A DNA stretch of 64,000 nt, taken from assembly GCF_009914755.1 (NCBI RefSeq), contig NC_060937.1; one strand, written 5' to 3'. Each line of letters opens with the position of its first letter. The first letter of the stretch is position 1. The position numbers and the translations under genes were made by a program. Positions 9,649 to 10,582 of this stretch are shown here, piece after piece. This DNA comes from the human T2T-CHM13v2.0 reference genome, Homo sapiens. The notes below the pieces were generated by a model, which saw nothing but the letters and a program-made list of their open reading frames with translations, searched no databases and had not been told where the DNA came from.

Positions 9649-9952
9649 TTTTTTTTTTTTTTTTTTTTTTTTGACAGAGTCTTGCTCTGTCTCCCGGCCT
9701 GGAGTGCAGTGGCTGGGTCTTGGGTCGCTGTGGTCTCCGCCTCCTGGGTTTGAGAGATTCTCCTGCCTCGGCTTCCCGAGTTGCTGGGATTGCCCGCTCA
9801 TGCCACCACGCCCAACTAATTTTTATATTTTTGGTAGAGACAAGATTTTGCCGTGTTGGCCGGGCTGGTCTGGAACTCTTGGCATCGGGTGGTCCACTCG
9901 CCTCGGCCTCCCATGGTGCTGGGATTGCAGGTGTGAGCCACCACGCCCAGCC
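9649..9952 (-). mobile_element. AluS (antisense) within the pseudogene 3' UTR, heavily A>G substituted on the + strand
   Basis: Poly-T at 9649-9672 then a full antisense Alu ending 'ccaccacgcccagcc'; 17 A>G differences from AluS consensus by manual alignment. Confidence 0.95.
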
Positions 9953-10270
9953 CCAATACATTTTTTTGGAGTACCTTCTATATGCTAAACAATACAGAGG
10001 GATAGCTCTATTATTTCCTAGTACAGCAAAAATTTTATGGTTGCTACTTTAGGTTTATAATTTGTAAGATTGGTCTAATTTCCATCAGCCATACTAATGT
10101 TAGATTTTAAAAGGAGGTAATTTTTTTTCTCTTTGAACCAAAGGAATGAATTAACTTTGAAAACATAGTTTGGAATACTATAGAATGGATTCTTCTACCT
10201 TTGTTTCAACTCCTTAGTCTTAATCTCGAGTCTAGCAAACTAGAATGAGAGTTAAGAGATACCAATTATT

Positions 10271-10582
10271 GCCAGGTGCAGTGGCTCATGCCTATGATCC
10301 CAGCACTTTGCGGGGCCGAGGCTGGTGGATCCCCTGGGGTCAGGGGTTGGAGACTAGCCTGGCCGGGATGGCGGGACCCCATCTCTACTAAAAAATACAA
10401 AAAAAGAAAAACTGTCCAGGCATGGTGGCACATGCCTGTGGTCCCAGCTGCTCGGGAGGCAGAAGTAGGAGAGTCGCTTGAACCCAGGAGGCGGAGGTTG
10501 CGGTGAACCAAGATCGTGCCACTGCACTTCAATCCGGGCACCAAAAGTGAAACTCCAGCTAAAATAAATAAATAAAAATAAA
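10271..10582 (+). mobile_element. AluS (sense) within the pseudogene 3' UTR, heavily A>G substituted
   Basis: 'gccaggtgcagtggctcatgcc...gtgaaactccagct' plus A-rich tail; 12-14 A>G differences from consensus; forms an inverted pair with 9649-9952, about 320 bp apart. Confidence 0.95.

What the first reader, a model, noticed from the sequence alone, without database searches (positions are those of the whole stretch)
9649..10582. Fossilised ADAR A-to-I hyper-editing: an edited ZDHHC20 mRNA written into the genome
Seen: the retrocopy 3' UTR has an inverted Alu pair about 320 bp apart. Aligned by hand to the AluS consensus, the antisense Alu has 17 A>G changes on the + strand (9696, 9717, 9727, 9732, 9733, 9752, 9770, 9792, 9833, 9850, 9853, 9862, 9882, 9887, 9892, 9915, 9927) and no T>C that I can find. 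The sense Alu has about 12 more (10296, 10313, 10337, 10345, 10365, 10366, 10374, 10375, 10414, 10440, 10450, 10473; 10441 and 10502 depend on subfamily) against about 2 T>C. The bias follows the mRNA strand, not Alu orientation, and includes AA>GG clusters. The other Alus in the window lack this excess and mostly show CpG decay. Established: ADAR1 hyper-edits inverted-Alu dsRNA in 3' UTRs, reverse transcriptase reads inosine as G, and L1 ORF2p makes processed pseudogenes. APOBEC3 or CpG decay would give G>A/C>T instead. Inference: one hyper-edited germline or early-embryo mRNA was retrotransposed, preserving a single-molecule record of ancestral primate RNA editing. I cannot confirm whether this case has been reported.
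Basis: partly seen in the sequence, partly recalled or inferred. Interest (0 to 1): 0.95.

Follow-up and report, generated by a model that had tools for sequence, protein, structure and literature searches.

The report
Fossil RNA editing in gene copies
This dead genomic copy of the human ZDHHC20 messenger RNA carries dozens of A-to-G changes confined to the two inverted Alu repeats that pair in the parent RNA, likely because the copied molecule had been edited by ADAR enzymes tens of millions of years ago, and two other gene copies show the same mark, so the genome likely stores readable records of ancient germline RNA editing.

Summary
Confirmed and extended. ZDHHC20P4 (6792-12250) is an intronless retrocopy with a 15-bp target-site duplication; its parent carries both Alus. 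Where parent and genomic-Alu consensus agree, the copy has 27 of 100 A>G but 1 of 92 T>C; outside the Alus A>G is 38 of 1111 and T>C 36 of 1199. A second, independent ZDHHC20 retrocopy (chr1, 5'-inverted) shows 22 of 99 versus 0 of 92, sharing 11 sites. New CpGs made by the changes have since decayed, so they are old. Published edits of the parent map here; 4 of 6 are G in the copy, but the strongest is not, and 3' G is not enriched. One motif search also found a chr8 AFG3L2 retrocopy with both Alus marked, one Alu absent from today's parent, and the same strand bias in SVA's Alu-like domain. Best reading: ADAR-edited mRNA copied by L1 (0.93). The mechanism is reported in cultured cells (PMC11702581); my ten searches found no report of fixed germline cases. 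Primate orthologues could not be checked.

The parts
6777..6791 (+). 5' copy of the 15-bp target-site duplication, just after a TT/AAAA L1 endonuclease-type site
   Evidence: (family D4)
6792..12250 (+). ZDHHC20P4, full-length processed pseudogene of ZDHHC20 (5' UTR, broken CDS, whole 3' UTR)
   Evidence: hub annotation names the CDS part only (6886-8554)
7086..8160 (+). decayed coding region; joins 10 parent exons spread over about 78 kb without introns; frameshifted into several ORFs
9649..9953 (-). antisense Alu; 16 polarised A>G on the mRNA (+) strand: 9696, 9717, 9732, 9733, 9752, 9770, 9792, 9833, 9850, 9853, 9862, 9882, 9887, 9892, 9915, 9927; four more where parent and chr1 copy share A: 9778, 9888, 9889, 9891
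9954..10270 (+). 317-nt spacer (loop of the duplex); no excess, A>G 4 of 97, T>C 4 of 122
10271..10582 (+). sense Alu; 11 polarised A>G: 10296, 10313, 10337, 10365, 10366, 10374, 10375, 10440, 10450, 10473, 10502; also 10318, 10373 (A in parent and chr1 copy) and 10367 (A in parent, G in both copies)
12227..12250 (+). AATAAA signal and decayed poly(A) remnant
12251..12265 (+). 3' copy of the target-site duplication

Best explanation
ZDHHC20P4 is an intronless copy of the ZDHHC20 mRNA whose two inverted 3' UTR Alus carry a strand-specific A>G excess, likely because ADAR deaminated that RNA duplex before L1 reverse transcriptase copied the molecule into a germline genome. Steps: (1) the parent 3' UTR holds the Alu pair (shown) and is predicted to fold into a long duplex; (2) the parent is ADAR-edited in these Alus today (published); (3) one molecule was edited at about a quarter or more of its duplex adenosines on both arms (inferred); (4) L1 target-primed reverse transcription read inosine as G (hallmarks shown; the reading of inosine inferred, reported in cultured cells); (5) the copy was fixed and has since drifted neutrally, about 4.5% outside the Alus, with CpG decay eroding some new Gs (shown), which by a recalled neutral rate is roughly 30-45 million years (inferred). 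The same happened independently to a second ZDHHC20 molecule (chr1).
For: Polarised A>G 27 of 100 vs T>C 1 of 92; no asymmetry outside, private A>G 19 of 927 vs T>C 20 of 1014. Second retrocopy, G000:C1:193704957-193710287, own 14-bp duplication, Alus in the inverted segment so its changes read T>C on the genomic plus strand: 22 of 99 vs 0 of 92. The copies share 11 A>G of 99 sites (6.0 expected, p 0.009) but only 2 other derived changes of 332 (p 3e-6), and each has private ones (16 and 9). Parent duplex -482.6 kcal/mol; 33 of the 38 changed sites are base-paired in the model. 5' neighbour pooled over both copies: T 12 of 24, G 8 of 55 (T vs G p 0.002; G vs rest p 0.044). At CA sites, C>T follows in 5 of 15 changed but 1 of 41 unchanged sites (p 0.004), near the decay of ancestral CpGs, so the Gs are old. 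Primers for an ADAR-dependent ZDHHC20 site flank the antisense Alu exactly (PMC9113518 passages; mapped to 9598-9621 and 10005-10028). Published sites map to 10365, 10366, 10367, 9696 (G here), 9836, 10526 (A here). Third case in another gene: chr8 AFG3L2 retrocopy, sense Alu 26 of 82 A>G vs parent, 26 of 855 outside (p 5e-16). Mechanism seen de novo in 3 of 235 pseudogene insertions (PMC11702581 passages and Fig. S8 legend).
Against: 3' G is not enriched (9 of 36 vs 18 of 64). 5' G depletion in this copy alone is not significant (p 0.085), and the pooled test reuses the same positions twice. The most edited published site (hg19 21949107, mean 45-65%) maps to 9836 and is A in both copies (chance 0.12-0.30; the parent has since changed the base next to it). 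Overlap with published sites, 4 of 6, is marginal (p 0.054), three of the four are adjacent, and the hg19 mapping was one of 14 fitting offsets, chosen with a recalled hg19-hg38 shift (the hg38 offset was unique under splice constraints). For the chr1 copy, strictly private A>G vs T>C inside the Alus is not significant (10 of 95 vs 5 of 121, p 0.10). In the short stretch shared with the older chr6 copies, 2 of 3 differences common to both retrocopies side the parent with the outgroup, so some shared ancestry of the two templates is not excluded.
Confidence: 0.93

Rival explanations
1. Both ZDHHC20 copies descend from one intermediate (an edited, transcribed retrocopy or a lost allele) that already held the 11 shared Gs; each then gained further edits. 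Editing is still the source, but the copies are not independent records.
For: 11 shared sites exceed chance; 2 of 3 outgroup-polarised shared differences are derived in both copies; private divergences are nearly equal, 4.5% and 4.3%.
Against: Only 2 of 332 non-A positions in the Alus show shared derived changes; no third copy with the 3' UTR was returned by the genome search (only 40 candidates scored); several shared sites recur in unrelated marked Alus on chr8 and in SVA (consensus positions 26, 38, 161; two of them selected by the search motif).
Confidence: 0.03
2. The Gs arose in DNA after insertion through GC-biased gene conversion, transcription-linked asymmetry or damage at a cruciform.
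For: The copies are old and about 4.5% diverged; inverted Alus can pair in DNA (established knowledge, recalled).
Against: GC-biased conversion predicts T>C equal to A>G, found 1 vs 27; strand asymmetry would cover the whole copy, found none outside; the parent has the same pair for longer and shows no excess; new CpGs have decayed like ancestral ones.
Confidence: 0.02
3. The parent, not the copy, changed: it lost Gs (CpG decay or conversion), mimicking A>G in the copies.
For: Part of the raw count is this: e.g. 9746, 9868, 9900, 9905, 10447 are G in the consensus and both copies; these were dropped from the polarised count.
Against: The 27 retained sites are A in both parent and genomic-Alu consensus (65-98% of 178 Alus).
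Confidence: 0.01
4. Errors of L1 reverse transcriptase at a hairpin, or deamination of the cDNA strand in the RNA:DNA hybrid during insertion.
For: ADAR can act on the DNA strand of hybrids (recalled, no call); the changes date from about the insertion.
Against: cDNA-strand deamination would give T>C on the mRNA strand along the whole hybrid; polymerase errors would not be A>G only; found A>G only, Alus only.
Confidence: 0.01

Closest known systems
De novo L1-made pseudogene insertions with ADAR-type substitutions in cultured cells (PMC11702581, bioRxiv 2024; passages and Fig. S8 legend seen)
   Same: Processed pseudogene, clustered T:A>C:G changes restricted to inverted Alus or a palindrome of the 3' UTR, ascribed to ADAR; 3 of 235 insertions.
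   Different: Somatic, induced, days old, three cases noted in passing. Here the events are natural, inherited, fixed in the reference genome, old, repeated for one gene, and comparable with present-day editing sites.
APOBEC3-edited retroelements fixed in genomes (PMC2873906, passages seen)
   Same: A deaminase footprint written into the genome through reverse transcription.
   Different: G>A on DNA of LTR elements, not A>G on mRNA; not tied to an RNA duplex.
ADAR hyper-editing of inverted Alus in 3' UTRs, including ZDHHC20 (PMC9113518, PMC12621589 passages; PMC5532815, PMC6307200, PMC9772385, PMC8551472 passages or supplement rows)
   Same: Same substrate, same strand rule, some of the same positions, also reported in a human embryo/oocyte data set.
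   Different: There it is a transient RNA state; here it is genomic DNA.
Retroprocessed plant organellar genes, kinetoplastid retroposed edited mRNAs, A>G-hypermutated avian proviruses (all recalled, no call)
   Same: Edited RNA copied back into DNA.
   Different: Other editing systems (C-to-U, U insertion) or viral genomes; not L1 copies of primate nuclear mRNAs.

Membership tests
L1-made processed pseudogene | exons joined without introns | tested here: met
   10 parent exons match contiguous stretches of 7080-8160; last exon
L1-made processed pseudogene | target-site duplication at a TT/AAAA site | tested here: met
   15 bp at 6777 and 12251; site seen
L1-made processed pseudogene | ends at the poly(A) signal with an A tail | tested here: met
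   AATAAA 12227-12232, homology to the parent ends just after it, A-rich remnant follows
ADAR hyper-editing footprint | A>G only, on the RNA strand, whatever the Alu orientation | tested here: met
   16 of 44 and 11 of 56 A>G vs 0 of 53 and 1 of 39 T>C
ADAR hyper-editing footprint | confined to a long predicted duplex | tested here: met
ADAR hyper-editing footprint | 5' neighbour preference U high, G low | tested here: inconclusive
   right order; p 0.085 alone, p 0.002-0.044 pooled over two non-independent site sets
ADAR hyper-editing footprint | 3' G enrichment (a weaker, statistical preference) | tested here: not met
   9 of 36 vs 18 of 64, p 0.82
ADAR hyper-editing footprint | overlap with present-day editing sites of the parent | tested here: inconclusive
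ADAR hyper-editing footprint | dependence on ADAR activity at the time of copying | not testable with these tools
   historic event; ADAR dependence of the modern site is published
ADAR hyper-editing footprint | changes present from insertion (shared by orthologous copies) | not testable with these tools
   no other primate genome held; indirect support from decay of new CpGs
APOBEC3 editing or CpG decay | G>A / C>T excess | tested here: not met
   non-CpG G>A 7 of 117 and C>T 10 of 124 against A>G 27 of 100

The most novel reading that the evidence does not exclude
The human genome holds an unread archive of single-molecule germline RNA editing: old retrocopies preserve ADAR patterns of ancestral primates, can preserve alleles since lost (the chr8 AFG3L2 copy carries a marked AluY that today's parent lacks), and the Alu-like domain of the whole SVA retrotransposon family descends from one ADAR-hyper-edited founder transcript, so RNA editing helped build the youngest human transposon family.
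Probability: 0.55. Interest if true: 0.92.

Novelty: new variant of a known kind. Interest (0 to 1): 0.82.

Why it matters
It is a direct route by which an RNA modification became inherited DNA sequence in primates. Each such copy is a full-length read of one germline or early-embryo mRNA from tens of millions of years ago, so ADAR activity, site preference and editing density in the ancestral germline become measurable and comparable with today's. It also shows that heavily edited mRNAs reach L1 particles in vivo. Practically, such loci can attract edited RNA reads of the parent and distort editing calls and Alu age estimates (inference). If the SVA lead holds, editing shaped an active transposon family.

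Tried and rejected
Similarity search with the marked stretch 9840-9935: the first 20 of 39 other hits were fetched; 0 of 20 were hyper-marked (at most 4 of either kind). Two-change motif search: 103 matches, 100 listed; every fifth was fetched; 0 of 20 clearly marked once the two selected sites were dropped (highest 6 of 53 in an old Alu), so marked Alus are rare and two-change motifs are mostly chance. Three-change motif: 4 matches, the source plus 3; 2 of 3 marked, L055 not. Sharing of positions between the ZDHHC20 copies and SVA or chr8, selected sites removed, was not significant (p 0.05-0.82); SVA with chr8 p 0.013. Outgroup test with the chr6 copies had only 3 informative sites. Site A2877 of NM_153251.4 could not be placed to a base. 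Supplements of PMC9772385: files 1-12 and 14 searched, 13 and 15-33 not, four files unreadable; more ZDHHC20 sites may lie there. PMC9148063 and PMC12016303 (passages) said nothing on edited retrocopies. No genome-wide scan and no other primate genome was possible. Dropped before the polarised counts: CpG columns, gaps, and sites where parent and consensus differ.

Full report
What is there. The stretch 6792-12250 is a full-length processed pseudogene of ZDHHC20. It joins 10 parent exons without introns, carries the whole last exon (87% identical over 4159 columns), ends at AATAAA and an A-rich remnant and is flanked by a 15-bp duplication at 6777 and 12251. The 3' UTR has an antisense Alu (9649-9953) and a sense Alu (10271-10582). 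The parent has both, and its RNA is predicted to pair 235 of 301 nt of the first with the second at -482.6 kcal/mol.

The substitution pattern. Against the parent, A>G is 41 of 148 inside the Alus and 38 of 1111 outside; T>C is 13 of 140 and 36 of 1199. Part of the raw excess is CpG decay in the parent, so I built a consensus from 178 genomic Alus (20 fetched stretches, 4 earlier loci and the window) and kept only non-CpG positions where parent and consensus agree. There the copy has 27 of 100 A>G and 1 of 92 T>C (p 5.5e-8): 16 of 44 in the antisense and 11 of 56 in the sense Alu, both on the mRNA strand. No background Alu comes close (maxima 7 of 57 and 4 of 36). The spacer and flanks are symmetric.

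An independent replicate. The genome search returned a second 3' UTR-bearing retrocopy on chr1, 5'-truncated, 5'-inverted, with its own 14-bp duplication. Its Alus lie in the inverted segment. It has 22 of 99 A>G and 0 of 92 T>C on the mRNA strand. Eleven changes are shared with the chr13 copy (6.0 expected, p 0.009), while only 2 of 332 other positions share a derived base. Neither copy can derive from the other: each lacks many of the other's changes and the chr1 copy lacks the coding region. Recurrent editing of favoured sites is the simplest reading; a common edited precursor is not excluded, and a 3-site outgroup test leaned 2 to 1 towards some shared ancestry.

Age. Outside the Alus the private divergences are 4.5% (chr13), 4.3% (chr1) and 2.9% (parent) over 3038 columns. 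With a recalled neutral rate this is roughly 30-45 million years; that is inference. Where a change turned CA into CG, the C has since become T in 5 of 15 cases against 1 of 41 at unchanged CA (p 0.004); ancestral CpGs read TG in 10 of the 22 cases that read TG or CG. The Gs are therefore about as old as the copies, and some will have reverted unseen, so 27 is likely an undercount.

ADAR signature and present-day editing. The 5' neighbour order is T 6 of 12, C 10 of 34, A 7 of 26, G 4 of 28 (p 0.085 for G); pooled over both copies T 12 of 24 against G 8 of 55 (p 0.002; positions not independent). 3' G is not enriched. The parent is a known ADAR target here: primers for an ADAR-knockdown-sensitive site flank the antisense Alu (PMC9113518, passages; mapped; same assay in PMC12621589, passages). 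Six published coordinates (PMC5532815 passages and one supplement row; PMC6307200 supplement rows; PMC9772385 supplement rows) map to 10365, 10366, 10367, 9696, 9836 and 10526. The hg38 offset was unique under the table's splice annotation; the hg19 offset was one of 14 fits and was chosen with a recalled assembly shift. Four of six are G in this copy (p 0.054). The most edited, 9836, is A in both copies, which counts against; the parent has since changed its neighbouring base.

Mechanism. Likely sequence: the Alu pair folded; ADAR deaminated both arms of one molecule; L1 ORF2p primed at a TT/AAAA site and read inosine as G; the insertion was fixed. The retroposition hallmarks and the pattern are shown; editing of the template and the germline setting are inferred; the enzyme (ADAR1 or ADAR2) and cell type cannot be told. 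DNA-level rivals predict symmetric or copy-wide changes, or T>C on the mRNA strand, and fail.

It is not a lone case. One 26-nt motif with three changes, taken from the chr1 copy, matched 4 places. One was the source, one showed no excess, two did. The first is a chr8 retrocopy of AFG3L2 (best solved-structure match AFG3-like protein 2; parent on chr18) that reads into an intron and ends at AATAAA. Its sense Alu has 26 of 82 A>G against the parent versus 26 of 855 outside (p 5e-16) and 16 of 59 versus 1 of 35 against the consensus. Its antisense Alu, 1688 nt away, has 8 of 34 versus 0 of 57 (5 of 31 without the selected sites, p 0.004), and is absent from today's parent, which shows the empty site. 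Since the mark is on the mRNA strand, the Alu was likely in the templating RNA, i.e. on an allele since lost; unproven. The second is an SVA (family name from my recall of its structure): 7 of 7 copies examined have 9-11 of 25-31 A>G on the SVA strand in the main Alu fragment against 1-4 of 41-50 opposite, at shared positions (p 0.002-0.024 in three copies after dropping the selected sites). Six of the seven were picked as close matches to the first, so they count as one founder event, and no partner Alu is known. Two broader samples found none (0 of 20 and 0 of 20), so such Alus are rare.

What is known. PMC11702581 (passages; Fig. S8 legend) reports 3 of 235 de novo pseudogene insertions in cultured cells with clustered T>C in inverted 3' UTR Alus, ascribed to ADAR: the mechanism is not new. 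PMC2873906 (passages) covers APOBEC3 marks in retroelements and ADAR marks in RNA only. Ten searches (most results seen only as listings and abstract starts) returned no report of fixed, inherited ADAR-marked retrocopies, of ZDHHC20P4 as such, or of an ADAR mark in SVA (0 papers). The library lacks most subscription journals and large supplements were only partly seen, so absence is not established.

Verdict. Real, well beyond chance, and best explained as fossil ADAR editing (0.93). A new variant of a known kind: natural, germline, ancient and repeatable. Interest 0.82; the wider archive and SVA reading would deserve more if confirmed.

Noticed in passing
L013 2451-7807 (G000:C1:193704950-193710306): Second ZDHHC20 retrocopy, 5'-truncated and 5'-inverted, with the same Alu-confined A>G (22 of 99 vs 0 of 92); later interrupted by an LTR (about 4506-5704) and an L1 3' fragment (about 6335-6687), names recalled.
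   Followed up: yes
L054 1186-1464 and L069 1697-1992 (G000:C8:43541290-43545200): AFG3L2 retrocopy reading into an intron, both inverted Alus marked on the mRNA strand; the antisense AluY-like copy is absent from today's parent (empty site), possibly a lost allele.
   Followed up: partly
L056 1011-1358; L063-L068: SVA Alu-like domain: 7 of 7 copies share 9-11 A>G on the SVA strand against 1-4 opposite; the family founder may have been ADAR-edited.
   Followed up: partly
window 12248-12445: Two copies of 93 nt, 105 nt apart, 92% identical, starting with the 3' target-site duplication: a small tandem duplication at the insertion site.
   Followed up: no
parent, matching window 9698-10532: A transcript model in a supplement table has an intron with GC...AG ends that fall on opposite arms of the Alu duplex; possibly a reverse-transcription jump across the hairpin rather than splicing.
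   Followed up: no
G000:C6:29582255-29583283, C6:31236273-31237395, C17:65316444-65317070, C11:75158017-75158252: Older or partial ZDHHC-type retrocopy fragments without the Alu pair.
   Followed up: partly
L074, L085: Young-looking Alus with 3 further A>G besides the 2 selected and only 2 other changes; lightly edited or chance.
   Followed up: no
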